Origin: Chloropicon primus
Lineage: Eukaryota
Reading direction: 5' to 3'
Assembly: GCA_023205875.1 (NCBI GenBank)
Contig: CP060768.1
Location: forward strand, 124,001-188,000
Length of the DNA: 64,000 nucleotides
This document shows, one piece after another, positions 35,863 through 62,060 of the stretch (position 1 is the stretch's first letter; the number at the start of each line of letters is the position of its first letter). The notes beneath the pieces were generated by a model. The model searched no databases and had not been told where the DNA came from. It saw only the letters and a program-made list of their open reading frames with translations. Both the position numbers and the translations under genes were made by a program.

Positions 35863-37443
35863 ATGGCGACGGGCGTGAGGCATGGCGCTTCGATCCAATG
35901 GACGCGGACACGAGGGAGCGTCTTGAGTTGCTGCTCCAGATCCAAAACAAAAGCAGCACCAACTTTCGTCGATCCAAGTGCAGGGATGAGGATGAAGATG
36001 AAGATGAAGATGAGGATGAGGATACCAGTGGCTTGCTCTTCCTCCTCCTCCTCGTCGTCGTCTGTTGCTACTGTGAAGGAGGAATCGTCGGGAAGTACGG
36101 GCTCGGCTTACGTTGCGGGGTCGACGGGAAGGACGGGACAGAGGGTCGTGAGGGAGCTCGTAGATGCTGGACTCAAGGTGAAGGCTGGAGTGAGGAGTTC
36201 TGACAAGTTCAGGGACACTTTTGACGAGATTCTTTCGTCACAGGACAAGGCAACGAGGCTGAGCTACGAGATGACGAGCTTGGAGGACGCTGAATCCCTG
36301 GAGAGGGGCGTCAGCGGCGCGGATGTTGTGGTGTGCTGCCTGGGAGCTCCGGAGGATGAATTCAACTTTGACAACCCGAGGAGAATCGACGGGGATGGAA
36401 CGATTGCTCTGATTGACGCGGCCAAGGCGAGCGGGACGGTCGAGCACTTCATTCTGGTCACATCCCTGGGCACTGGAAGGTTTGGCTGGCCGGCTTCCAT
36501 TCTCAACCTCTTCTTCGGCGTGCTGCACCACAAGAGGAGGGCGGAGGAGCACCTCCTGGCCAGCGGCTTGAGGTACACCATCGTGAGGCCTGGGGGGATG
36601 GAAAGGCCGACGGACGATTACTACAAGGAGCACAAGATGGTGGTGAAGGGGGAGGACACCCAGTTCGGGGGGCAGGTCTCGAGGACTCAGGTCTCGTGGT
36701 GCGTGAAGGAGTGCGTCCTGAACCCGGCGGTCTGCGAGAACAAGGTGTTGGAGTTGGTCACCAAGGAGATCAACCCGGGAAAGAAGAAGGACGAGGCCAA
36801 GGCGTTCGAGGAGTACGACACCAGCGTGATCGACCAGATCACCAAGATCAAGTCCGCCGGCGACCCAACCGTCGTGGGCTCTCCGGCGTGGTATACCGCC
36901 AAGTACGCTTACACGCCGAGCAAGCTCGACGCCCTCGTCCGGGCGATGGGGTTCAAGGGGACCGCTCCGGAGGTCGTGAACGGCCGGCTCGCCATGCTGG
37001 CCCTGGTGGCGGGCCTCGGGGAGGAGCTCGTGAGCGGGAAGCCCATCGGGCAGCAGGTTGTGGACCAGTATTTCGGAATCGCACTGACCATCGCCGCGGT
37101 GACCTCGGGGAGCCTGGTTCCGCTGGTCAAGGGGGTGGAGGTGAAGCACGCGGACCTCGGACCCTTCAAGTCCGTCGCGGAGAAGCTGAACGGGAGGGTC
37201 GCGATGCTGGCCTTCTCCTACCTCGCCCTCGGGGAGTCCTTTGGGGAGAAGAGGCTGGCGATCGACGCGGTCAAGGCCTCGTTCGCGGAAGTGACGGGCG
37301 TGCTGGCGAGCCTCGACTTCAAGGCGATCCTGTTCGGCTCGGCCATCTTTCTGCTGCTGGGCCTCACGACCTCGCTCGCCACCTTGGCCCCGATCCAGCT
37401 GCTGCTCGGCGGCGACGACGGGGGCGAGGAGGAGGCATCATGA
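35863..37443 (+). CDS. Tic62-like NAD(P)-binding Rossmann domain fused to an ELIP/LHC-like membrane domain
   Basis: VAGSTGRTGQRVVRELV, HFILVTSLGTGRFGWPASILNLF, YTIVRPGGMERP, GGQVSR; then APEVVNGRLAM and AEKLNGRVAMLAF (two ExxNGRxAM helices). Confidence 0.85.
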   Translation: MATGVRHGASIQWTRTRGSVLSCCSRSKTKAAPTFVDPSAGMRMKMKMKMRMRIPVACSSSSSSSSSVATVKEESSGSTGSAYVAGSTGRTGQRVVRELVDAGLKVKAGVRSSDKFRDTFDEILSSQDKATRLSYEMTSLEDAESLERGVSGADVVVCCLGAPEDEFNFDNPRRIDGDGTIALIDAAKASGTVEHFILVTSLGTGRFGWPASILNLFFGVLHHKRRAEEHLLASGLRYTIVRPGGMERPTDDYYKEHKMVVKGEDTQFGGQVSRTQVSWCVKECVLNPAVCENKVLELVTKEINPGKKKDEAKAFEEYDTSVIDQITKIKSAGDPTVVGSPAWYTAKYAYTPSKLDALVRAMGFKGTAPEVVNGRLAMLALVAGLGEELVSGKPIGQQVVDQYFGIALTIAAVTSGSLVPLVKGVEVKHADLGPFKSVAEKLNGRVAMLAFSYLALGESFGEKRLAIDAVKASFAEVTGVLASLDFKAILFGSAIFLLLGLTTSLATLAPIQLLLGGDDGGEEEAS

Positions 37444-44793: not shown

Positions 44794-45607
44794 AGCCAGG
44801 ATGGAGGGCAGAGGAGGGACTTCAAACCATGTTTAGGAACGATTAAAAGGCGTTTGCCGGAAAGAAACTTGGTTCAATCGATACAACAGGTCTCTTGAGC
44901 TTGAGATCGAACCCAACATTGCCTTGTCTCCTTGGCATCTTCTGGAAACAGCACCAGCACCAGCATCGAGAACACCAGCCAGGATTGAGGGCAGAGGAGG
45001 GACTTCAAACCAAGTTTAGGAACGATTAAAAGGCGTTTACCGGAAAGAAACTTGGTTCAATCGATACAACAGGTCTCTTGAGCTTGAGATCGAACCCAAC
45101 ATTGCCTTGTCTCCTTGGCATCTTCTGGAAACAGCACCAGCACCAGCATCGAGAACACCAGCCAGGATTGAGGGCAGAGGAGGGACTTCAAACCAAGTTT
45201 AGGAACGATTAAAAGGCGTTTACCGGAAAGAAACTTGGTTCAATCGATACAACAGGTCTCTTGAGCTTGAGATCGAACTCAACATTGCCTTGTCTCCTTG
45301 GCATCTTCTGGAAACAGCACCAGCACCAGCATCGAGAACACCAGCCAGGATTGAGGGCAGAGGAGGGACTTCAAACCAAGTTTAGGAACGATTAAAAGGC
45401 GTTTGCCGGAAAGAAACTTGGTTCAATCGATACAACAGGTCTCTTGAGCTTGAGATCGAACCCAACATTGCCTTGTCTCCTTGGCATCTTCTGGAAACAG
45501 CACCAGCACCAGCATCGAGAACACCAGCCAGGATTGAGGGCAGAGGAGGGACTTCAAACCAAGTTTAGGAACGATTAAAAGGCGTTTACCGGAAAGAAAC
45601 TCGGTTC
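44794..45607. repeat. 183-bp tandem repeat, about 4.4 near-identical copies
   Basis: gggacttcaaacc recurs at 44816, 44999, 45182, 45365 and 45548. Confidence 0.95.
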
Positions 45608-46127: not shown

Positions 46128-47759
46128 TCATTGCCAGAGCAAGTACCCAATCTCATCCCACATATCGCAGGCTTCTGTCCTGAAACCGGCGGTGACGTTC
46201 GGCATGGTGTCGGTGAAGTTCATCCACACCCTCGACTGCTGATCGAATTGTGGCCAGGGCACCTGCGACTTGGGCTTCAGGACAGAAGATTCGTCCAAGG
46301 ACTTGGCCGTGACGAAGTCAATCCAGTAGCTTTGCGTGTGCAGGCCCAGCTCCTCGTCCGAACGCGTTCTCTTCAGGTACTTCATCGATGGCTCGGCAAA
46401 GAGGTCAAAGACGAAGGGGAGCTCCACGCCATGGCAAGAGTGACCCTCGCAGCAGAAGGCGTAAGGCCCCCAAAAGTCGCTCGTGTAACCATAACCAAAG
46501 TTGTACGTGAAGGTGGGGAGTCCCTGGGCTCTGAAAGACTTGGCCATAAAACGCGATGGACAGGTGAAGAGGTAATCGGTGGCGAGCTGCTGCAAGGCGA
46601 TCCTGTTGTCCTCGCCGGTGTACTTAGCATACATCTGAGCCACCCGGAACATGTGCGTGCCGAACAAGGCGAACAGGGCAAGGTCGTACGCCTCGTAGTC
46701 CAAAGGGAAACCGACCGCGGCGTAAATGAACGGGCGACCGTCCTCCCTGTTCGAGCCGGTCAGCAATGGAACTTTTGACTGCATCTCGCCATTCTTGTAG
46801 GCAAGGTAAGGGTGGATCGGGATCTCCTCATTGCCGTACGTTGGCATCCACGGCAGCACGTAGTGAATCGGCTGCGGAAGCGGAACGACGACGATGCTCT
46901 CCTGTATATCAACCAACGTTTCCAACTTCTTTGACCTCAGGCACTCGGTCACGTTCTGCGCATCCAGGCACTGAGCATCCTCAATGAACTGCGTGTAGTA
47001 CTTGTTGTCCCTTCCATACTGAATGAAGGGGATGCTCAATGGCCCGCTTTCCACGATAGCCCTGTGAAAGAGTCCCTTGCTCAAAGGAGAAACCAGATGA
47101 GAGATAACCGACATGGCTCCCGCGGACTCCCCTCCCACAGTGACCTGGTCCTTGTTCCCTCCGAACAACTGGATGTTATCTTGCACCCATTGCAGAGCTA
47201 GCCGCTGGTCCTGGAGCCCAAAGTTCCCCTTTATCTCAGTCTTGTGCGTCAGCCAACCCAAAGCACCCAACCTGTAATTCAAGTTCACAAGTATCAAGTC
47301 CCCTGCTCTTGCGAATTGCAAACCATTGTAAGCAACGCAGCCTCCAGCTCCTTCGAAGAATGACCCTCCGTGAATGAAGACGTAGACCGGCCAGCCTCCT
47401 TTGGGTGGAGTCTTGTCTGGGATGTAAACGTTCAAGTACAAGCAATCTTCTGACTGCTTGTCAGGACACATCAAGTCAGGCAACTTGCACATCTGAGGGC
47501 ACCCTGGAGCGAACTCGGTCGCGTTCAGGGTCTCAGTCCAGGGCGTTGGAGGTACTGGCGATGCAAAGCGAAGCTCGTTCACCGGAGGCTGGGCGAACGG
47601 TATCCCAAGAAAGCTCACTGTGCCATTGGCTCTTGAGCCTCTCACCGGTCCAAACTTGGTGATAACAAGAGTATCATCGTGCTTGGCAGCAGCAAAAGTG
47701 GAGAGAGCGGCAAGCAAGATCAAGATGGTGAGGTGTTTGGACCCAACCATGACTGGCAT
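46128..47759 (-). CDS. Secreted type-B carboxylesterase
   Basis: Signal peptide, FLGIPFAQPP, SEDCLYLNV, HGGSF, GESAG nucleophile, CHGVEL. Confidence 0.93.
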   Translation of the reverse strand: MPVMVGSKHLTILILLAALSTFAAAKHDDTLVITKFGPVRGSRANGTVSFLGIPFAQPPVNELRFASPVPPTPWTETLNATEFAPGCPQMCKLPDLMCPDKQSEDCLYLNVYIPDKTPPKGGWPVYVFIHGGSFFEGAGGCVAYNGLQFARAGDLILVNLNYRLGALGWLTHKTEIKGNFGLQDQRLALQWVQDNIQLFGGNKDQVTVGGESAGAMSVISHLVSPLSKGLFHRAIVESGPLSIPFIQYGRDNKYYTQFIEDAQCLDAQNVTECLRSKKLETLVDIQESIVVVPLPQPIHYVLPWMPTYGNEEIPIHPYLAYKNGEMQSKVPLLTGSNREDGRPFIYAAVGFPLDYEAYDLALFALFGTHMFRVAQMYAKYTGEDNRIALQQLATDYLFTCPSRFMAKSFRAQGLPTFTYNFGYGYTSDFWGPYAFCCEGHSCHGVELPFVFDLFAEPSMKYLKRTRSDEELGLHTQSYWIDFVTAKSLDESSVLKPKSQVPWPQFDQQSRVWMNFTDTMPNVTAGFRTEACDMWDEIGYLLWQ

Positions 47760-48129
47760 ACGTCGGGAGTGCCCTCCTTCTTTCCAAGACAAGGCGTTGG
47801 CGGCTGCTGACCTGGCCTTTGAGGCAATGTGGGTTATCGGATTTTTGTCCATGGGATGAATGTACCCGATCACATCAGGCACATCAGGGACAAGATGGAG
47901 GAGGATGGGCCCATCGTGGTGAGAAAGGATGCTCTCCCCCCCCGAACCATTGCTCCCTGCCTGCCTGCCTGTCCCTCTCTCCCTCTCTCTCCCTCTCTCT
48001 CTCTCCCTCTGCTCCCCCAGTCTGTCGAGCAGCGAGAGGGAGGTGTTTTAATATAATATCTAATAACTTTTACACGTTTTGGATGGTTGATGGAGATACA
48101 GAGGGTTGATCCTTGCTCCTCGTCTTTGA

Positions 48130-49776
48130 TCACAAGATGCCAGGCTCACGGTAATAGCCGACACTATCCCAAAAGTCGCACTGATCCTTCTTGAACTCCG
48201 TGATGGTCGCCGGGTGGGCGCTCGAAAAGTTCATCCAGACATCCCCCTGAGCCTGCCCGTATTTTGGCCAAGGGAGCTGGCTCACAGGTTGGTTTGGATC
48301 GCCGCTGAGGATGAAGTTCGACCAGTAAGTATTCATCTTCTTCGCAAGGGTCCTCTCCTCCACAGTTGCGTTCTTGATCGAGTTGATGTTGTTGAAAACG
48401 AACATGAGCTCGCCGCCGTGGCAAGGGTGGTCCGTGCACACTTGACCCCACGTGCCTGGCCCCCAAAACATGCGCGTGGGGTAGCCAAAGTCGTACAAGT
48501 ACGCCCCAATCTTCGAGTAAGCCTCCGACACGAACCTCCCAAGGCACTGGAAGAGGTAATCCGTCACCAGCCTTTCGATGACTGGCCTTTGGTCCCCGTG
48601 GCCCTGAGGAGGATAGTGATACAAGGCCTGCGGGCCCTTGGTGCCGAACAGGGCCAAGACTGCCACGGTGTATTCCGCCCGATTCATCGTGACGTTGTCA
48701 AAGCCAAAGACGAAGACTCTGGCGTCCTCCAAGTTGCCGCCCACCAGGACTGGTATCTGTGAAGTTTGGCCCTTCGACATAGCGAGATAGGGATGCACCG
48801 GCAAGTCCGCCGTCCCTATCGTAGGCGTCCAAGGCATCAAGATGATGTCCGGGTTAGGGAAGGGGAAGATGTCTGCCTGAGTCTTGTCCATGATGCTGAC
48901 AATGTCCTCGGCCGTGATTTTCCTCATGCAGCTCAGGAAGCCCGCGCCGTCCGAGCAGCCACTCTCCGCGACAAACTTGTTGTAGAACCTGTTGTTCTTA
49001 GGCGTAGTAAAAGGCAGCGCAATTGGACTGCTCTCGATAATGGCTTTTGAGAACAAGCCCTGCGAGTGGGGTGCCGCCATGTGACACATCACACTCACAG
49101 CTCCGGCACTCTCTCCGCCCAGAGTTACCCTCGTGTTGTCACCCCCGAAGCTCTCGATGTTGTCGCGCACCCACTGGAGGGACAAGATTTGATCTTGGAA
49201 CCCATAGTTGCCCTCGATGTCGCCGTACTCCAAGAATCCAAACGCTCCCAGCCTATAGTTCATCGTCACCAGGATGATCCCGTTCTCAGCAAACCCAAAG
49301 CCAGCGTACGCCAGCGTGCCGGCTGCCCCGTTCTGAAACGCTCCACCGTGTATGAAGACGTAAACTGGCCAGCCCTCTGCAGGAGGCTCGCTGTCTGGCA
49401 CGAACACATTGAGGTAGAGGCAGTCCTCTGACTGCTTTGGAGGGCACATGATGGGAGGCAGCATGCACGTCTGTGGGCAGCCGGGGCTGAAGTCAGTGGC
49501 ATTCAAGACTTCAGTCCAAGGCTCCATGTTTACTGGTGAACTGAACCGAAGATCTCCTACTGGTGGCTGGGCATAGGGTATTCCCATGAAGCTTACTGTT
49601 CCATTGGTGCGAAAGCCTTGTATTGGGCCATTTGGTGTCTGAACAAGCGTTGGCCTGGACCCACCGTTGGCTCCAACACCCCTCTTGCTCCTATAGTCTC
49701 GAACAGCCTCACAAGTATGGCAGGCCAACACCAAGGCCAAAGCGGCTAGAGCAACAAGCACCCCTCGTCGTGACAT
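48130..49776 (-). CDS. Secreted type-B carboxylesterase (diverged tandem paralogue)
   Basis: Signal peptide, SEDCLYLNV, HGGAF, GESAG, CHGGEL. Confidence 0.93.
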   Translation of the reverse strand: MSRRGVLVALAALALVLACHTCEAVRDYRSKRGVGANGGSRPTLVQTPNGPIQGFRTNGTVSFMGIPYAQPPVGDLRFSSPVNMEPWTEVLNATDFSPGCPQTCMLPPIMCPPKQSEDCLYLNVFVPDSEPPAEGWPVYVFIHGGAFQNGAAGTLAYAGFGFAENGIILVTMNYRLGAFGFLEYGDIEGNYGFQDQILSLQWVRDNIESFGGDNTRVTLGGESAGAVSVMCHMAAPHSQGLFSKAIIESSPIALPFTTPKNNRFYNKFVAESGCSDGAGFLSCMRKITAEDIVSIMDKTQADIFPFPNPDIILMPWTPTIGTADLPVHPYLAMSKGQTSQIPVLVGGNLEDARVFVFGFDNVTMNRAEYTVAVLALFGTKGPQALYHYPPQGHGDQRPVIERLVTDYLFQCLGRFVSEAYSKIGAYLYDFGYPTRMFWGPGTWGQVCTDHPCHGGELMFVFNNINSIKNATVEERTLAKKMNTYWSNFILSGDPNQPVSQLPWPKYGQAQGDVWMNFSSAHPATITEFKKDQCDFWDSVGYYREPGIL

Positions 49777-50419
49777 CACAGCAATGGTGCACAAGGGAAG
49801 GAAGTCGACTCGCTCAACCCGCTCGCTTCAGTCACCTTGCACTTCCTTGTGACTGACTCCTCTTGGCCTCCGCCTATCGATAGGACTGCTGAAGGGGGGT
49901 GGCGCAAGCTACACAAACTTTGGGCACACCTCAACGAGGAACCCAATCAAAAAAGATGGAGTCTTGGTCCCTGCTTGAGCCCCCTTCCACCGTCTCCCTC
50001 TCCGCTTGGACTGAAGTACACAATAGGCTCGCCTCACAAGCAAACTGGATAGGCTAAACTGGAACAAAAGTGGCAACTGAGTGGCAACTTAAAAACGTGA
50101 TTCGTCTCCAGTTCCAGCAAACTGAAAACTGAGACTATAGACTATAGACTGAGAAAGACAGAGACAGAGACAGAGGCAGGGAGACATCAAGGGGATGGTG
50201 CTTCCTTGCTTCCTTGCTTCCTTGCTTGGGGCAAGATTAGGGCGTCACTCGTTTCAATTCTTCAGAGACACCGCTTTGGGGCGAGCCTGCTGTGTTGCGG
50301 CCTAGAAAGTCTTACGAAAATAGTTGCTTGTCGTTGCTCTGAAATAACAACAACAAGGAACCGCGAGGGCGGTTCGTGGCTTAAAAATCATTATGTTACA
50401 AATCAATACCACCGAAGCC

Positions 50420-55389: not shown

Positions 55390-56599
55390 ATGTTGCTAGT
55401 GGCCTCCTCGAGAAGCTCATCGATAACCAGCAGGATTATTCAGACGGCGGGAGGTCGCTTTTGTGGGACGACGCCGGCGGCGAGGGGAACGCCGAACCAG
55501 CAGCGCTTGAGCTCCTTGAGCTCCTCCTCGAGCAAGCTCGTTCTTGGGAGGGACAGAGAGGCCCGCTCGGCTTGGACAAGAAGGGTGGTCCCCCGTGCGG
55601 AGTTCGACGGGAGCAGACGCGTGGGAGAGCCGGCGGGGGACGATGAGGACGACTCGCTCGTGCAGGTGAGAAACGAGAATCGAAACCGGCCCCCCTATCC
55701 GATGACTCATCCACCAAATCGATCATCCGCTCACACGCGCGCGCTTCGCTCTTATCCCCCAACCCTCCAAACGACAACAACAACAACAACAACAGGTGAC
55801 GGTAGAGCGCGTCGTCAAGTCCGACAAGAATGAGGCGAGCGTGCTTTACCTGTCCCTCCTGGACAGGAGCGGCTCCATCATGCCCGTCTACGTCGGGGAG
55901 GCGGAGAGCGTGGCCCTGGACATGGAGCTCTCCAACAAGAGGACCACGGCGAGGCCCATCATGTACGACCTCTTCAAGTCCTTCGTGGAAACTTCGGGCT
56001 ACGAGCTGAGCCACGTGATCATCGACGACCTCAAGTCGAAGACGTACCACGCGACGTGCTACTTCAGCGACCTGGACAAGCCGGCCGGCGTGACCATCAA
56101 GCTCGACAGCAGGCCGAGCGACGCCCTGAACCTCGCCGTGAGGTTCAACAAGCCCGTGTACGTCACCAAGGTGGTCCTGGAGAAGGCGAGGGACTTCCTG
56201 ATCCCCTCGGACAAGGTCGTTCACTTCAAGGCGGAGGGCCCGCACTTCAGGGAAGTGATGGACAACAACCGCATGAGCCGCACGCGCCCCCTGGGCAAGG
56301 CCGGGAGGGAGGAGATCGAAGCGAGCATCAGGAGGCTTCTGATGCACTACGTCGACCCGGACATCGTGGAGCTCCAGGCCAGGCTCCAGGTCGCCGTGAG
56401 CAAGGAGCTCTACGAGGACGCTGCCAAGATCAGGGACGAGATGGGGGAGGCCATGAGCAAGGACAGGATGGCCTCGGTCTGCGTGGCCATGGAGTCCGCG
56501 GTGAACGACAAGCGCTTCGAGGAGGCCGCCGTCCTGAGGAACACTTTCCTGTTCCTCAGGGAGCAGAGGGACAAGGAGGATAAGAGAAAGATCGCCTAG
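55390..56599 (+). CDS. Bifunctional nuclease (DUF151/BFN) with UVR coiled-coil domains (intron 55666-55795)
   Basis: MPVYVGEAES, RPIMYDL, LDSRPSDALNLAVRF, LQVAVSKELYEDAAKIRD, AVNDKRFEEAAVLR. Confidence 0.88.
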
Positions 56600-56789: not shown

Positions 56790-57165
56790 CCATTCGAAGA
56801 CAGTTGGGGTGATCGTTGATGACAGCCCTCAGAACAAGCGTCCACTCATCGTCCCCATCGAGACCGGAGTCGAGCTCAATATTACCGAACTTCAACAGCA
56901 CACGAAGGCAGTCGTAGCTGCAACGGTCCACGCTTTCGTGGGCGGCTTCCAACGCATACGAGACGCCAACCTTGACCATCTTCTCAAGATGGTCGGGCAT
57001 GTCAAACATTGCCAAAATGCGTAAGGACGAATCCCATCCGCCTATGTATGTGCGTGAGCGGGCATCAAATGAGGGTGAGAGAGCGAGTGCGACCCATTCC
57101 TCAAGCAACTCACGAATAACACGCCCCCTCCAGGGCTTCCAAACACCAGAAGAGGGGGGTGTCAT
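56790..57165 (-). pseudogene. Truncated ankyrin-like ORF translationally coupled (ATGA overlap) to the upstream repeat-nuclease gene
   Basis: SYDCLRVLLKFG and TLVLRAVINDHPNCLRM ankyrin-like segments. The ORF then runs into host low-complexity (cct)n sequence. Confidence 0.55.
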
Positions 57166-60100
57166 GCATCAATCATGGCAATCATGGCCTCGTGTTTCCT
57201 TTTCTTGTTCCGCAGCGAAACAAGCAGCTGGTGCGCTGCGCCCTCGTCGCTGCACGCCTTCAGCTTGGCGGCGAGCGTGCCGATCATGTTCATCAACTTC
57301 GCGTTCTCCTTGTTTAACACGGTCCGCAACTCTTTGACGGGATCCAATCCCAGGACCGACAGAGCGTCCCCGCATGCGACTACCGCGTCCACAAACCCAG
57401 GCTTCAACATGCGCGACGCGAAGGCGTTCGAACCCGCTATCAGCACGCCGCCTTTGCCGACCATCTGCTCGAGCTCTTCAAGCACGGCGTAAAGTGCCTC
57501 GGGATCGTCGAACTTCGCCGCAACGCTATTGCAAACAAAGGTCTGGAGATTCTTGATACCGAAGCGCGTCCTCAGCGTGTCGAGCACGGCGTAGAGCGCG
57601 TCGGGATCGTCGAACTTCGCCGCAACGCTGTTATTCACAAAGGTGATACCGAAGCGCGTCCTCAAAGTGTCCAGCACGGCGTAGAGCGCTGCGGGATCGT
57701 CAAACCTCGCCGCAACGCCTCCTGAAACAAAGGTTTGGAGACTCTTGATGCCAAAGCGCGTCCTCAAAGTGTCCAGCACGGCGTAGAGCGCTGCGGGATC
57801 GTCAAACCTCGCCGCAACGCTGTCTGAAACAAAGGTTTGGAGACTCTTGATGCCGAAGCGCGTCCTCAAAGTGTCGAGCACGGCGTAGAGCGCGTCGGGA
57901 TCGTCAAACCTCGCCGCAACGCCTCCTGAAACAAAGGTTTGGAGACTCTTGATGCCAAAGCGCGTCCTCAAAGTGTCCAGCACGGCGTAGAGCGCGTCGG
58001 GATCGTCAAACCTCGCCGCAACGCTGTCTGAAACAAAGGTCTGGAGACTCTTGATGCCGAAGCGCGTCCTCAAAGTGTCGAGCACGGCGTAGAGCGCTGC
58101 GGGATCGTCAAACCTCGCCGCAACGCTGTCTGAAACAAAGGTCTGGAGACTCTTGATACCGAAGCGCGTCCTCAAAGTGTCGAGCACGGCGTAGAGCGCG
58201 TCGGGATCGTCAAACTTCGCCGCAACGCCATCACAAACGAAGGTCTGGAGACTCTTGATACCGAAGCGCGTCCTCAGCGTGTCGAGCACGGCGTAGAGCG
58301 CGTCGGGATCGTCAAACTTTGCCGCAACGCCACCACAAACGAAGGTCTGGAGACTCTTGATACCGAAGCGCGTCCTCAGCGTGTCGAGCACGGCGTAGAG
58401 CGCGTCGGGATCGTCAGACCTCGCCGCAACGCCACCACAAACGAAGGTCTGGAGACTCTTGATACCGAAGCGCGTCCTCAGCGTGTCGAGCACGGCGTAG
58501 AGCGCGTCGGGATCGTCAAACCTCGCCGCAACGCCACCACAAACGAAGGTCTGGAGACTCTTGATACCGAAGCGCGTCCTCAGCGTGTCGAGCACGGCGT
58601 AGAGCGCGTCGGGATCGTCAAACTTCGCCGCAACGCCATCACAAACGAAGGTCTGGAGACTCTTGATACCGAAGCGCGTCCTCAGCGTGTCGAGCACGGC
58701 GTAGAGCGCGTCGGGATCGTCAAACTTCGCCGCAACGCCATCACAAACGAAGGTCTGGAGACTCTTGATGCCGAAGCGCGTCCTCAAAGTGTTGAGCACG
58801 GCGTAGAGCGCGTCGGGATCGTCAAACTTCGCCGCAACGCTGTCACAAACGAAGGTCTGGAGACTCTTGATGCCGAAGCGCGTCCTCAGCGTGTCGAGCA
58901 CGGCGTAGAGCGCGTCGGGATCGTCAAACTTCGCCGCAACGCCATCACAAACGAAGGTCTGGAGACTCTTGATACCGAAGCGCGTCCTCAGCGTGTCGAG
59001 CACGGCGTAGAGCGCGTCGGGATCGTCAAACTTCGCCGCAACGCCTCCTGAAACAAAGGTTTGGAGACTCTTGATGCCGAAGCGCGTCCTCAAAGTGTCG
59101 AGCACGGCGTAGAGCGCTGCGGGATCGTCAAACCTCGCCGCAACGCTGTCTGAAACAAAGGTTTGGAGACTCTTGATGCCGAAGCGCGTCCTCAAAGTGT
59201 CGAGCACGGCGTAGAGCGCTGCGGGATCGTCAAACCTCGCCGCAACGCTGTCTGAAACAAAGGTTTGGAGACTCTTGATGCCGAAGCGCGTCCTCAAAGT
59301 GTCGAGCACGGCGTAGAGCGCTGCGGGATCGTCAAACCTCGCCGCAACGCTGTCTGAAACAAAGGTTTGGAGACTCTTGATGCCGAAGCGCGTCCTCAAA
59401 GTGTCGAGCACGGCGTAGAGCGCTGCGGGATCGTCAAACCTCGCCGCAACGCTGTCTGAAACAAAGGTTTGGAGACTCTTGATGCCGAAGCGCGTCCTCA
59501 AAGTGTCGAGCACGGCGTAGAGCGCGTCGGGATCGTCAAACCTCGCCGCAACGCTGTCTGAAACAAAGGTCTGGAGACTCTTGATGCCGAAGCGCGTCTT
59601 GAGCGCCGTGAGGATGTCAAAGAGTTTCTCCGGATCGTCGAACTTTGCAGCGACGCCGCCGCAGACAAACGTGCCCAAGTTGGTTATGCCGAACTTGGGA
59701 TCTTGCAACCCTTTGATGCTTTTCTCGAAGGCTCCCGTCAGGACACGCGAAGGCACTCCGGGGGTGGCCATGAGCTTTCGCGCCAGGTCGAGATCACCAC
59801 CCACGAGCGTCGCGACGCGCTGCTCGGCGGCTTCAAACTCCTTGCTCATGCGCGCCCACACGTCCGCGGCGGCATCGTTGGCGGCGGCGTTGTCATGGTT
59901 GCTGCTCGGGCACGCCTTGGTCGCTGCAGCACCGCCTTGATGGATGCGCTGCGCGACGGCGGTCACAGCAGCTGACGCGGCAACGTTCGGTAATTGCGAC
60001 TCGGTGACGACGACGAGCACGTTGTCCCCCCACTGCGAAAGCTGCTCGAAGTGTGCGGCGCCCACGCGCAAGCGGACCACGAACGCGTCAGGGAACATTT

Positions 60101-60446
60101 CGCGGAGCTTGGTCGTCTTGCGTTGGTCGCGTCCCACGTCGGAGTCGCCGTGCGTGAAGCCCGGGTCGTACTCGAACAGCACTTCCGTGCCATTCGTGAG
60201 CTTGAAGAACGCATCGGTGTTGTGGTGGGTCTTGCCTTCCGTCAGGTGCTTCGCGAGCGAGCGCCCGGTCACGCCCTGCTCAAGCAAGCCGTTCTCAAAC
60301 AACAGCTGCGCCACATGCGCGACGTGACGTGTCTCGGCCTTGGACGCGCCGATCGGAGACGGCACGTCGTAGTCGTCGACACGGCGGCGTTTGCTCGGCG
60401 GCGCGTCCGACGCCATGACGCGCACCTCGAACGCGACCCTTTCCAT
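57162..60446 (-). CDS. TALE-like 34-aa tandem-repeat protein with N-terminal Vsr/DUF559-like endonuclease domain and NLS motifs
   Basis: Intronless 1094-aa ORF: PPSKRRRV; SKAE...TDAFF...VLFEYDPGFTHG...RDQRK...VVRLR; 22 repeats of FGIKSLQTFV[xxx]VAA(R/K)FDDP(D/A)ALYAVLDTLRTR; C-terminal KKRK. Confidence 0.85.
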   Translation of the reverse strand: MERVAFEVRVMASDAPPSKRRRVDDYDVPSPIGASKAETRHVAHVAQLLFENGLLEQGVTGRSLAKHLTEGKTHHNTDAFFKLTNGTEVLFEYDPGFTHGDSDVGRDQRKTTKLREMFPDAFVVRLRVGAAHFEQLSQWGDNVLVVVTESQLPNVAASAAVTAVAQRIHQGGAAATKACPSSNHDNAAANDAAADVWARMSKEFEAAEQRVATLVGGDLDLARKLMATPGVPSRVLTGAFEKSIKGLQDPKFGITNLGTFVCGGVAAKFDDPEKLFDILTALKTRFGIKSLQTFVSDSVAARFDDPDALYAVLDTLRTRFGIKSLQTFVSDSVAARFDDPAALYAVLDTLRTRFGIKSLQTFVSDSVAARFDDPAALYAVLDTLRTRFGIKSLQTFVSDSVAARFDDPAALYAVLDTLRTRFGIKSLQTFVSDSVAARFDDPAALYAVLDTLRTRFGIKSLQTFVSGGVAAKFDDPDALYAVLDTLRTRFGIKSLQTFVCDGVAAKFDDPDALYAVLDTLRTRFGIKSLQTFVCDSVAAKFDDPDALYAVLNTLRTRFGIKSLQTFVCDGVAAKFDDPDALYAVLDTLRTRFGIKSLQTFVCDGVAAKFDDPDALYAVLDTLRTRFGIKSLQTFVCGGVAARFDDPDALYAVLDTLRTRFGIKSLQTFVCGGVAARSDDPDALYAVLDTLRTRFGIKSLQTFVCGGVAAKFDDPDALYAVLDTLRTRFGIKSLQTFVCDGVAAKFDDPDALYAVLDTLRTRFGIKSLQTFVSDSVAARFDDPAALYAVLDTLRTRFGIKSLQTFVSDSVAARFDDPDALYAVLDTLRTRFGIKSLQTFVSGGVAARFDDPDALYAVLDTLRTRFGIKSLQTFVSDSVAARFDDPAALYAVLDTLRTRFGIKSLQTFVSGGVAARFDDPAALYAVLDTLRTRFGITFVNNSVAAKFDDPDALYAVLDTLRTRFGIKNLQTFVCNSVAAKFDDPEALYAVLEELEQMVGKGGVLIAGSNAFASRMLKPGFVDAVVACGDALSVLGLDPVKELRTVLNKENAKLMNMIGTLAAKLKACSDEGAAHQLLVSLRNKKRKHEAMIAMIDA
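57480..59693 (-). repeat. Coding tandem array of 22 x 102-bp units (one 90-bp unit)
   Basis: Period of 102 bp checked (gatcgtcaaa at 59429 and 59531); the unit near 57627 lacks KSLQ (12 bp). Confidence 0.97.
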
Positions 60447-60890
60447 ATGAATTATGAATTAATTTCCAGCTCACCTTAACATTCAATACGTAACGTCCCC
60501 GCTGTCCACGCAAAACAGAAACAACCTACTCGCGGGGGGAACCTCCTTCTTCTTCGCGACGGACGACGGAGGGAGGCAGAGGGAGGGAGGGAGGGCGGTG
60601 AAAAACGAAACCTTGTCTCTTGCTCTTTCGATTGATACCTCGGTCGACAGGTTTGGCGTCCGGAGTCGTTCGCGGGAGCTGGCCAAGGAAGATATTTTCT
60701 TAGGCTTGAGCTTGGAAGGCCTACCTCCGCTCGAGAGGGTCAGGGGCGTCGCGACTCGCGAGGCTTAAGGGCTTCCTTCAGTCGGCGGGCCACGAAGGGT
60801 TCGCTCGCTTGCCCTCTGCAGGTCCCGCGGCCACCTTGCCGGGCGCGACGGGGGACGACGACGGGTGAACCTTGGACGGAGAGAGAGAGG

Positions 60891-62060
60891 ATGGAGATGA
60901 AGGAGGTTGTTGAGGCAGGGGAAGTGCGGCTGGAGATCGCGGAGGGGGAGGGGACGAGCTCCTCGTGGGAGGCCGCGAGTGATTCGGGTTCCGATTTCGA
61001 GGTCGGTTCGGACGAGGAGGAGGCGTCGAGGCACGGGGAGGACACCTCGCCCTGCTCCGTGCTGCCCTCGACGAGCGGAGGCGGCGGTTGTCGCTCGTCG
61101 TCGGGCTGCTTCGGCACCCCGGAGATCGTGTACTGGGGGGGCGGGCAGGACGGCAAGGTGCCCGAGGACCCGGGAGAGGACGAGCCCTACTGCAGGATCT
61201 GCTTCGACGGCCCTCACGAGGACGGCCCCTTGTTCCGCGCTTGCGACTGCAAGGGGTCGGTCGCTTACGTCCACTACGAGTGCCTGTCGAGGTGGGCCGT
61301 GGACGCCCAGAGGGCGGAGTGCGAGCTGTGCCACTCCAGCTTCAGGCTCCCGGAGGGGATGAAGCCCTTCATCCCGAAGACGCCCATTCTGCACAAGGCC
61401 TGCACGATCGCCGCGGAGTCCATGTCGAGGAGCACGGCCCTCTTCAACCTCCTGCCTTCCGGCTCCGGGGCCGTTACATCCAACAGCGCCATCGTGTACC
61501 TGAGCGGCTACGGGCACCAGAGGGGCTGCACCGAGCTCGGGATCTGCCGCTTTCCCACGGCGTTCCCTCGGGGCATCCTGGGCGAGGCCATGACGCCGGA
61601 GGAGTGGAAGCGCGTGATCCGGCGCATCAACAGAGTCAGCGGGAAGATGATCAACATGGGCTGGCGCTTCGTCATCTTCATCCTGTGCCTGTTCCTGAAC
61701 ATCTGCCTGATCGTCGTGCTGTCCTTCATCGACCACGCCGCGGTCATACCGTTCATGTTCGCGGTCATCCTCATCCAGCTGCTTCCCGCGGTCCTCTTCG
61801 CGTTCATCACCAACTACCATAACGCCAGGGTCCACGCGCAGCTCACGAGGCTCTGCTCCGACCTCTCCGAGGAGTTCGCGCCCTCGGGCGTCACGTTCGG
61901 GTTCCACTGCATCACCGCGGACCTAAGGCATAGGGGAAGGCTTTGGAACCCCTACGCCGTGCACCCCGTCGGGGAGCCCAAAGTCATCAAGTTCCTCACC
62001 GTGGAGATCGGCACCGGCATCACGTTCGGATCCGCCGGGATCTCCCGCCGCGAGGGTTGA
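60891..62060 (+). CDS. RING-CH (MARCH-type) E3 ligase with TM helices
   Basis: CRICFD...LFRACDCKGSVAYVHYECLSRW...CELC; two C-terminal hydrophobic helices. Confidence 0.88.
   Translation: MEMKEVVEAGEVRLEIAEGEGTSSSWEAASDSGSDFEVGSDEEEASRHGEDTSPCSVLPSTSGGGGCRSSSGCFGTPEIVYWGGGQDGKVPEDPGEDEPYCRICFDGPHEDGPLFRACDCKGSVAYVHYECLSRWAVDAQRAECELCHSSFRLPEGMKPFIPKTPILHKACTIAAESMSRSTALFNLLPSGSGAVTSNSAIVYLSGYGHQRGCTELGICRFPTAFPRGILGEAMTPEEWKRVIRRINRVSGKMINMGWRFVIFILCLFLNICLIVVLSFIDHAAVIPFMFAVILIQLLPAVLFAFITNYHNARVHAQLTRLCSDLSEEFAPSGVTFGFHCITADLRHRGRLWNPYAVHPVGEPKVIKFLTVEIGTGITFGSAGISRREG

What the first reader, a model, noticed from the sequence alone, without database searches (positions are those of the whole stretch)
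57480..59693. RVD-like hypervariable loop: an ordered string using D/G/N, part of the TALE base-specifying alphabet
Seen: N-to-C order of the loop triplets is CGG, SDS x5, SGG, CDG, CDS, CDG, CDG, CGG x3, CDG, SDS x2, SGG, SDS, SGG, NNS, CNS, then degenerate SNA. In the internal repeats the other 31 positions are almost invariant, apart from R/K and D/A dimorphisms and single substitutions. The central residue is only D, G or N. Established: TALE residue 13 specifies the base (D to C, G to T, N to G/A). Inference: if that code transfers, the target is about TCCCCCTCCCCTTTCCCTCTRR, a polypyrimidine tract like those abundant in this genome's promoters. The loop sits 9 residues before ALYAVL rather than 4 as in TALEs, so the code may differ and may use all three residues.
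Basis: partly seen in the sequence, partly recalled or inferred. Interest (0 to 1): 0.85.

Follow-up and report, generated by a model that had tools for sequence, protein, structure and literature searches.

The report
Natural TALEN-like nuclease in an alga
A marine alga carries a gene that joins a likely DNA-cutting domain to 22 near-identical repeats predicted to fold like bacterial TALE DNA readers, each with one changeable residue that probably picks a base, so it would be a natural version of the engineered TALEN gene-editing tool, from a family also found in giant viruses, with no binding or cutting yet measured.

Summary
The repeats are predicted to form the TALE/mTERF superhelix. A family profile aligns to TALEs with the central D/G/N at TALE position 13 and residue 12 deleted. 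That residue varies in 18 of 18 family arrays (pairwise difference 0.68 against at most 0.37 elsewhere). It is rewritten between paralogues (7 of 10) and kept between close homologues. The N-terminus is a Vsr/EDxHD-type nuclease domain with all active-site residues intact. A family profile hits 296 clusters, including algal, choanoflagellate and giant-virus proteins. Best reading: a natural TALEN-like site-specific nuclease, probably selfish. Not shown: binding, cutting, the code. The predicted 22-mer has no match above chance in the window, mTERF fits the fold as well as TALE, and this array is twice the family's usual length and looks recently expanded, so its exact order may mean little. 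I found no description of the family in print.

The parts
57162..60446 (-). Intron-free ORF P0001 (1094 aa; likely true start at the second Met, 60414-60416, giving 1084 aa)
   Evidence: Relative P0014 begins at the equivalent Met; RNA-type contigs match only up to 60435.
60378..60401 (-). Basic motif PPSKRRRV (aa 16-23), likely nuclear localisation signal
   Evidence: Sequence. A similar basic motif lies ahead of the nuclease in 19 of 31 full-length relatives; shuffles give mean 4.8, maximum 12. NLS function inferred.
59928..60365 (-). Vsr/EDxHD-type PD-(D/E)xK nuclease domain (about aa 28-173); putative active site E38 (60333-60335), D78 (60213-60215), D94 (60165-60167), H99 (60150-60152), D107 (60126-60128), K110
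   Evidence: AlphaFold pLDDT 91.6; fold matches mostly nucleases, best Z 7.9; D94, H99, D107, K110, R127 in 76 of 76 aligned relatives, D78 in 75 of 76, E38 in 66 of 67 ungapped; spacing matches I-Bth0305I E170/D196/N208/H213/D222.
59697..59927 (-). Helical linker and degenerate 'repeat 0' (aa 174-250)
   Evidence: Long helix in the model; conserved in relatives; its end aligns as a TALE-like unit in the profile match.
57465..59696 (-). Array of 22 TALE-like repeats (aa 251-994); loop triplet = TALE positions 11, 13, 14
57627..57635 (-). Loop (NNS) of repeat 21, the one 30-aa unit, which lacks four residues of its first helix
   Evidence: this unit has the lowest confidence in the model.
57165..57464 (-). 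Conserved C-terminal helical cap (aa 995-1094) opening with a degenerate repeat (SNA)
   Evidence: shared by close relatives.
60435..60436 (.). Point where RNA-type contigs of two studies leave the window's sequence; possible 5' edge of a duplicated or moved unit
   Evidence: X5, X6 continue 120 and 72 nt into other sequence; X4 stops here; that sequence is not in the window. Unresolved.
55796..56599 (+). Left neighbour: host gene with bifunctional-nuclease (PF02577) and UVR domains, convergent
   Evidence: joined to the 3' end of the repeat gene in one contig. No evidence that it belongs to the system.
60891..62060 (+). Right neighbour: host RING-variant gene, divergent

Best explanation
The gene encodes a likely nuclear, site-specific DNA nuclease built like an engineered TALEN: 22 tandem repeats predicted to wind round DNA like TALE repeats, probably one base per repeat read by the central D/G/N residue, fused to a likely Vsr/EDxHD-type cutting domain, and it probably behaves as a selfish, homing-type gene. 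Shown: the architecture, the loop-focused variation, the conserved active-site residues, the family's spread over algae and giant viruses. Predicted: both folds. Inferred: one-repeat-one-base reading (about 0.7); the TALE code D=C, G=T, N=G/A (about 0.5; isoleucine never occurs, so residue 14 may split N into NG = G and NS = A); an active nuclease (about 0.75), nicking as a monomer or cutting as a dimer on the 5' side of the bound site; a selfish homing-type role rather than defence (about 0.5). Targets would be changed by recombination and point change at the loop codon, as in TALE genes.
For: Fold: model of the last 8 repeats and cap at pLDDT 86; 35 of 36 Foldseek rows shown are TALE, BurrH or TOD chains, best E 1.4e-3; VIA gives mTERF1 Z 12.0 and TALE Z 10.9 (rmsd 4.2 over 273 residues). 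Sequence: the family profile's best PDB hit is the TALE Hax3, E 0.004, with three more TALE-type chains among 10 hits and no mTERF; relative P0040, with the same nuclease and cap (E 1e-23), has full ND/NN/NG/NS loops and matches dTale2 in loop register, E 2e-26; the Atlas's nearest cluster is TAL_effector at 0.77, a lead only. Variation: central residue varies in 18 of 18 arrays, 0.68 against at most 0.37; alphabet D 52, N 42, G 32, S 3, other 2 of 131 units. Two Tribonema paralogues differ at 7 of 10 central residues against 42 of 321 other array positions (p = 9e-5), while 9 of 10 members of one 90% cluster keep the same order and four equal-length pairs show 0 central changes among 4-7 array changes each. 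Nuclease; of the best 150 family hits 82 carry the nuclease motif and 37 of these also two or more loops. Selfish traits: patchy spread over algae, a choanoflagellate and giant viruses; EDxHD nucleases are known homing enzymes (PMC3239194); a 91% identical relative has different upstream sequence and a different loop order; contigs suggest a second copy or another 5' flank.
Against: No binding or cutting data. No target found: TALE-code best 17 of 22, free-code best 18 of 22, both within shuffled ranges. No fold hit passes E 0.001; whole-array rmsd to TALEs is 13-16 A in Foldseek; mTERF scores as high as TALE, and Z under 13 for helical repeats or under 8 for the nuclease may be a common arrangement. 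Pfam TAL_effector is hit by neither P0001 nor P0040; the P0040 E-value is inflated by repetition and only one TALE chain was hit. Residue 12 is missing, so loop geometry differs from canonical TALEs. The central residue is the most variable position in only 7 of 18 arrays over the whole repeat. This array has 22 loops against at most 11 in any relative and holds runs of identical units on two backbones. No empty site, terminal repeats or target duplication were found, and codon use is host-like.
Confidence: 0.58

Rival explanations
1. Same biochemistry, different job: a programmable nuclease kept for conflict, by the alga against viral DNA or by viruses against host or competitor DNA, not for its own spread.
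For: Family occurs in hosts and in giant viruses; host-like codon use; RNA-type contigs cover the gene in several studies; loop order is conserved within a 10-member cluster; no mobility signature.
Against: Most arrays have 4-11 repeats, short for a unique target; no target shown in any virus; one gene covers one site.
Confidence: 0.2
2. An mTERF-like nucleic-acid binder without a one-to-one cipher: the superhelix grips DNA or RNA, a few residues set specificity, and the loop only tunes affinity.
For: mTERF1 is the top VIA hit (Z 12.0) and six of the top ten rows are mTERF or mitoribosomal proteins; P0154 joins the same nuclease to repeats that Pfam calls mTERF, E 1.5e-26; pTERF proteins bind specifically with no published cipher (PMC11417379); the loop is one residue short.
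Against: Sequence profile and Foldseek favour TALEs; a single position with a D/N/G/S alphabet varies in every array; the basic N-terminal motif points to the nucleus, not organelles.
Confidence: 0.14
3. The family reads DNA as proposed, but this copy's 22-letter string is mostly the product of recent unequal crossing-over (or assembly of a repeat), so it does not spell a selected target. Compatible with the best explanation at family level.
For: Twice the longest relative; blocks SDS x5 and CGG x3; two nucleotide backbones; a 77% identical relative has two loops only; no match above chance in the window.
Against: D and G both occur on both backbones with different codons; 15 of 19 units are distinct in DNA; frame and active site are intact.
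Confidence: 0.3
4. A TALE-like transcription regulator with a dead nuclease, binding pyrimidine-rich promoters (closest to the first reader's picture).
For: Basic nuclear motif; C/T-rich tracts are common between genes here.
Against: All putative catalytic residues are intact and invariant in the family; no promoter match above chance.
Confidence: 0.08

Closest known systems
TALEs and TALE-likes (Xanthomonas TALEs, RipTALs, Bats/BurrH, MOrTL1/2; PMC4787788) and STARs (PMC11417379)
   Same: 34-aa helical repeats, predicted superhelix, one variable residue in register with position 13, overlapping alphabet (D, G, N, S), L29 kept, degenerate flanking repeats.
   Different: Residue 12 is missing; no isoleucine at 13 (0 of 323 motifs); G14 alternates with S; no Pfam TAL_effector hit; found in algae, a choanoflagellate and giant viruses; fused to an enzyme domain, which the TALE-likes described in the passages I read are not.
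EDxHD homing endonucleases (I-Bth0305I, PDB 3r3p; PMC3239194) and Vsr/DUF559 nucleases
   Same: Same order and similar spacing of E, D, (D/N/H), H, D active-site residues; same core fold (Z 5.5, rank 42); nuclease joined to a modular DNA-binding part.
   Different: Nuclease is N-terminal, reader is a TALE-like array instead of NUMOD motifs; no intron or intein around it; nuclear gene of a eukaryote; homing not shown.
mTERF / pTERF proteins (PDB 3n6s; PMC11417379)
   Same: Same superhelical repeat fold (Z 12.0); one family member carries mTERF-like repeats behind the same nuclease.
   Different: Near-identical tandem units with one hypervariable residue; basic nuclear motif; nuclease domain; no Pfam mTERF hit for this protein.
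Engineered TALENs (TALE array fused to FokI; recalled)
   Same: Programmable-looking repeat reader plus a restriction-fold nuclease in one chain.
   Different: Natural; nuclease at the N-terminus and of the Vsr type.

Membership tests
TALE-like proteins (definition in PMC4787788) | Tandem array of 33-35 aa repeats | tested here: met
   21 of 22 units are 34 aa; relatives span 32-38 aa.
TALE-like proteins (definition in PMC4787788) | Superhelix of paired helices with the reading loop between them | tested here: inconclusive
   Predicted only; TALEs fill the Foldseek list but at E 1.4e-3 or weaker, and mTERF ties in VIA.
TALE-like proteins (definition in PMC4787788) | Variable residue at position 13 | tested here: met
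   Register; variation.
TALE-like proteins (definition in PMC4787788) | Conserved Val7, Gly14, Leu29 | tested here: not met
   Leu29 in 22 of 22, Gly14 in 11 of 22, Val7 in 0 of 22.
TALE-like proteins (definition in PMC4787788) | One-to-one binding that follows the TALE code | not testable with these tools
   Indirect search of the 64-kb window found nothing above chance; no whole genome held.
Pfam TAL_effector (PF03377) | Match to the profile | tested here: not met
   No hit for P0001 or P0040.
EDxHD / Vsr-like nucleases | E-D-x-H-D active-site residues | tested here: met
   E38, D78, D94, H99, D107 conserved with spacing like I-Bth0305I; correspondence made by order and spacing, not by superposition.
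EDxHD / Vsr-like nucleases | Vsr-like restriction-enzyme fold | tested here: inconclusive
   Top fold matches are nucleases of this fold class, but best Z is 7.9 and I-Bth0305I scores 5.5; 3 of 76 members hit REase_MTES_1575 weakly; Atlas DUF559 at 0.80.
Homing endonuclease genes | Cuts the allele that lacks the gene; empty site exists | tested here: inconclusive
   No contig joining the two flanks was seen in 7 runs laid on the flanks separately; metagenome cover was thin.
mTERF (PF02536) | Match to the profile | tested here: not met
   No hit for P0001; 2 of 76 nuclease-bearing relatives do match.
DNA transposon | Terminal inverted repeats or target-site duplication | tested here: not met
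   Longest shared words between the flanks are 8-9 nt, as in random pairs; exact matches only.

The most novel reading that the evidence does not exclude
This is the first natural family of TALE-guided enzymes: hundreds of algal, protist and giant-virus genes in which a reprogrammable one-repeat-one-base array with a shortened, single-residue reading loop aims a Vsr-type nuclease, and in a second subfamily a different enzyme domain. It would link mTERF and TALE repeats and may be the pool from which bacterial TALEs came.
Probability: 0.5. Interest if true: 0.95.

Novelty: new variant of a known kind. Interest (0 to 1): 0.86.

Why it matters
TALE-type readers are known from a few bacterial groups, one fungal case and two marine fragments, and in the papers read they carry no enzyme domain. 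A large eukaryotic and viral family with an attached nuclease would supply a biological origin for the TALE code (aiming a selfish or defensive cutter), would tie TALE and mTERF repeats into one lineage, and would offer new compact scaffolds and a possibly different code for genome editing. It is directly testable: swap one residue per repeat and select binding sites.

Tried and rejected
Target search: TALE-code and free-code scans of the window gave nothing above shuffled orders (300 and 25 shuffles). Whole genome not held. Genomic contexts of relatives, needed to crack the code from flanks, were not obtained: five viral scans gave one giant-virus contig with a partial nuclease match and no intact array; the metagenome scan gave four short loci; the phage collection gave no match; the prokaryote scan gave one locus that does not match the family profile. 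Pfam hits on the full protein are sums over repeats and were discarded. PHROGs: one unnamed family hit 11 of 76 members, not followed. Empty-site search by contigs: no joint seen, cover thin; small-share runs were not used as habitat evidence. The second N-terminal domain (9 of 150 hits) looks like a uracil-DNA glycosylase fold from recalled motifs, but PDB and Pfam searches gave no support. The nuclease tree (quick method, 100 columns, 75 of 76 rows) puts P0040 in a 16-row group with this protein (SH-aLRT 93) but cannot say which loop length is ancestral. MOON, pTERF and STAR were considered as possible prior descriptions and do not fit by architecture or source. Literature: searches returned 0 papers; 19, 56, 57, 75 and 114 listed none on this family by title or abstract start; one search was swamped by 'natural talent' and is uninformative. 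No complex prediction was run.

Full report
Observation. The region is one minus-strand ORF, 57162-60446, 1094 codons. In repeats 2-20, 18 nucleotide sites vary, 5 of them in the 9 loop bases. The units fall on two backbones (S-type and C-type), and D and G occur on both with different codons. Within this protein alone the central residue ranks only fifth in variability, so the window by itself does not prove a reading residue.

Setting. The window is a compact algal nuclear region (AP2, light-harvesting, Brix, Sec16 and other eukaryotic domains in the 38 ORFs I scanned). The gene lies between a bifunctional-nuclease gene and a RING-variant gene. Its GC3 (0.74-0.81) is within the range of 12 other ORFs of the window (0.70-0.95). 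No terminal repeats link the flanks. Contigs of runs guessed to be RNA cover the 5' part in 3 of 3 such runs laid (2 studies) and the 3' part in 2 of 2 (2 studies); they lack about 130 nt in the neighbouring gene, consistent with a spliced intron. Two of them leave the window's sequence at 60435 and continue in sequence that is not in the window, with no AG acceptor there. This suggests a second copy or another flank; no DNA run of the organism was laid there.

Family. Two searches gave 18 relatives and a profile search 296 clusters at 50% identity with E up to 0.001, of which the best 150 were seen. Of these 150, 82 carry the nuclease motif, 37 of them with two or more loops; 9 carry a different N-terminal domain with the same repeats; many entries are fragments. 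Of 30 proteins looked up for source names, clusters included Emiliania huxleyi virus 84, a Megaviridae sample, two Tribonema minus paralogues and a choanoflagellate; most had no name. A giant-virus contig holds a partial nuclease match.

The repeats are TALE-related. A profile of 76 family members hits 10 PDB sequences at E up to 10; the best is the TALE Hax3 (E 0.004) and three more are TALE-type. The alignment puts C/S at TALE position 11, a gap at 12, D/G/N at 13 and G/S at 14, and ALYAVL at 24-29. Relative P0040 shares the nuclease and cap, has full-length loops ND, ND, ND, NN, NG, NS and matches dTale2 with loops in register. A second profile (A6) hit no TALE, and Pfam's TALE model hits neither protein. 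The AlphaFold model of the last 8 repeats and cap (pLDDT 86) returns TALE, BurrH or TOD chains in 35 of 36 Foldseek rows shown, none at E below 0.001 (that TOD chains are TALE fusions is recalled). VIA ranks mTERF1 (Z 12.0) and a TALE (Z 10.9, rmsd 4.2 over 273 residues) nearly level. So the fold is TALE/mTERF class, and sequence leans to TALE.

The central residue behaves like a reading residue. From 161 proteins, 9 near-duplicates dropped, 18 regular arrays of at least 4 units were cut out (131 units). The central residue varies in all 18, with mean pairwise difference 0.68 against 0.33 and 0.37 for its neighbours and at most 0.32 elsewhere; it is the top position in 7 of 18. The alphabet is D, N, G and rarely S; isoleucine, the TALE residue for A (recalled), is absent from 323 motifs. 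N splits evenly between NG and NS (21 and 21), which suggests, untested, that residue 14 separates G from A. Seeds for the arrays used a motif that favours C/S and G/S, so the alphabets at 11 and 14 are somewhat biased. Paralogues in Tribonema differ at 7 of 10 central residues, while 9 of 10 members of one cluster keep one order. That is the pattern expected of a specificity code: kept among close homologues, rewritten among paralogues.

The missed half: a nuclease. Residues 28-216 fold with pLDDT 91.6. Foldseek gives only weak hits, largely nucleases; VIA's top eight rows are Cdn1, VC1899, Bax1, Can2, Can1 and BsaWI at Z 6.6-7.9, with I-Bth0305I at Z 5.5, a range that may reflect only a common arrangement. 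The residues are more telling: D94, H99, D107, K110 and R127 in 76 of 76 relatives, D78 in 75, E38 in 66 of 67. Their order and spacing match the EDxHD active site of I-Bth0305I, a dimeric Vsr-like homing endonuclease (PMC3239194, passages read). The members were found with a profile that includes this domain, so conservation is partly selected for. A basic motif precedes the domain in 19 of 31 full-length relatives.

Target. Only 64 kb could be searched, so this neither supports nor refutes the code. This array is twice as long as any relative's, so its exact string may be recent expansion.

Mechanism. Most likely the array wraps the DNA, one repeat per base, residue 13 reading the base and the basic residue at 18 holding the backbone, and brings the N-terminal nuclease to nick or, as a dimer, cut next to the site. 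I favour a selfish homing-type role because of the nuclease class, the patchy host-virus spread and signs of changing flanks; defence is the main alternative, and a code-free mTERF-like reader remains possible.

Prior knowledge. PMC4787788 (passages) defines TALE-likes; this protein meets length and position 13, fails the Val7/Gly14 motif, and the code is untested, so I file it as working like a TALE-like, not as a member. PMC11417379 (abstract, pTERF section, first part of the STAR section, passages) describes other families and has no occurrence of 'virus', 'alga' or 'endonuclease' in its main text; its supplement could not be read and may list this family. PMC5472282: abstract and outline only. 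Ten searches showed no description of the family; the library lacks most subscription journals. The scan's own notes held no look-alike sequence; 8 of 62 word matches were shown and concern other repeat types.

Verdict. Architecture and variation pattern are shown; folds are predicted; binding, code, cutting and biological role are inferred.

Noticed in passing
P0034, P0037, P0042, P0044, P0047, P0075, P0100, P0103, P0107, P0149, P0150 (alignment A7): The same repeats behind a different conserved N-terminal domain (Y/F-P-P, W-x-D, H-P-S motifs). It recalls a uracil-DNA glycosylase fold, which would make a natural targeted base-damage enzyme, but PDB and Pfam searches gave no support.
   Followed up: partly
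P0108, P0132, P0096, P0153: The same nuclease in front of a different repeat type (M-G-x-S-F-W/Y) whose central residue again varies among D, G, N and S.
   Followed up: partly
P0154: The same nuclease in front of repeats that match Pfam mTERF at E 1.5e-26: a possible link between mTERF and TALE repeats.
   Followed up: no
window 60614-60667, also 26839, 32730, 35682, 37653, 37979, 41818, 55082: A dispersed motif of about 20-45 nt; 8 matches against 0.01 expected. It also occurs in many other RNA-type contigs, often near one end. Possibly a shared 5' leader or promoter element of this alga.
   Followed up: partly
window 60435: RNA-type contigs of two studies switch to sequence absent from the window, 19 nt upstream of the likely start codon, with no splice acceptor.
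   Followed up: partly
window 44794-45607 and 1-250: Near-perfect tandem arrays: 4.4 copies of 183 bp and 3 copies of 83 bp, both 98% identical.
   Followed up: no
window 46128-49794: Two tandem carboxylesterase genes with lower GC3 (0.70) than most neighbours.
   Followed up: no
window 35863-37443: NAD(P)-binding domain fused to a chlorophyll a/b-binding-like segment.
   Followed up: no
window 56800-57024 (+): Short open frame of about 70 codons in the 3' flank of the repeat gene, covered by RNA-type contigs; not searched.
   Followed up: no
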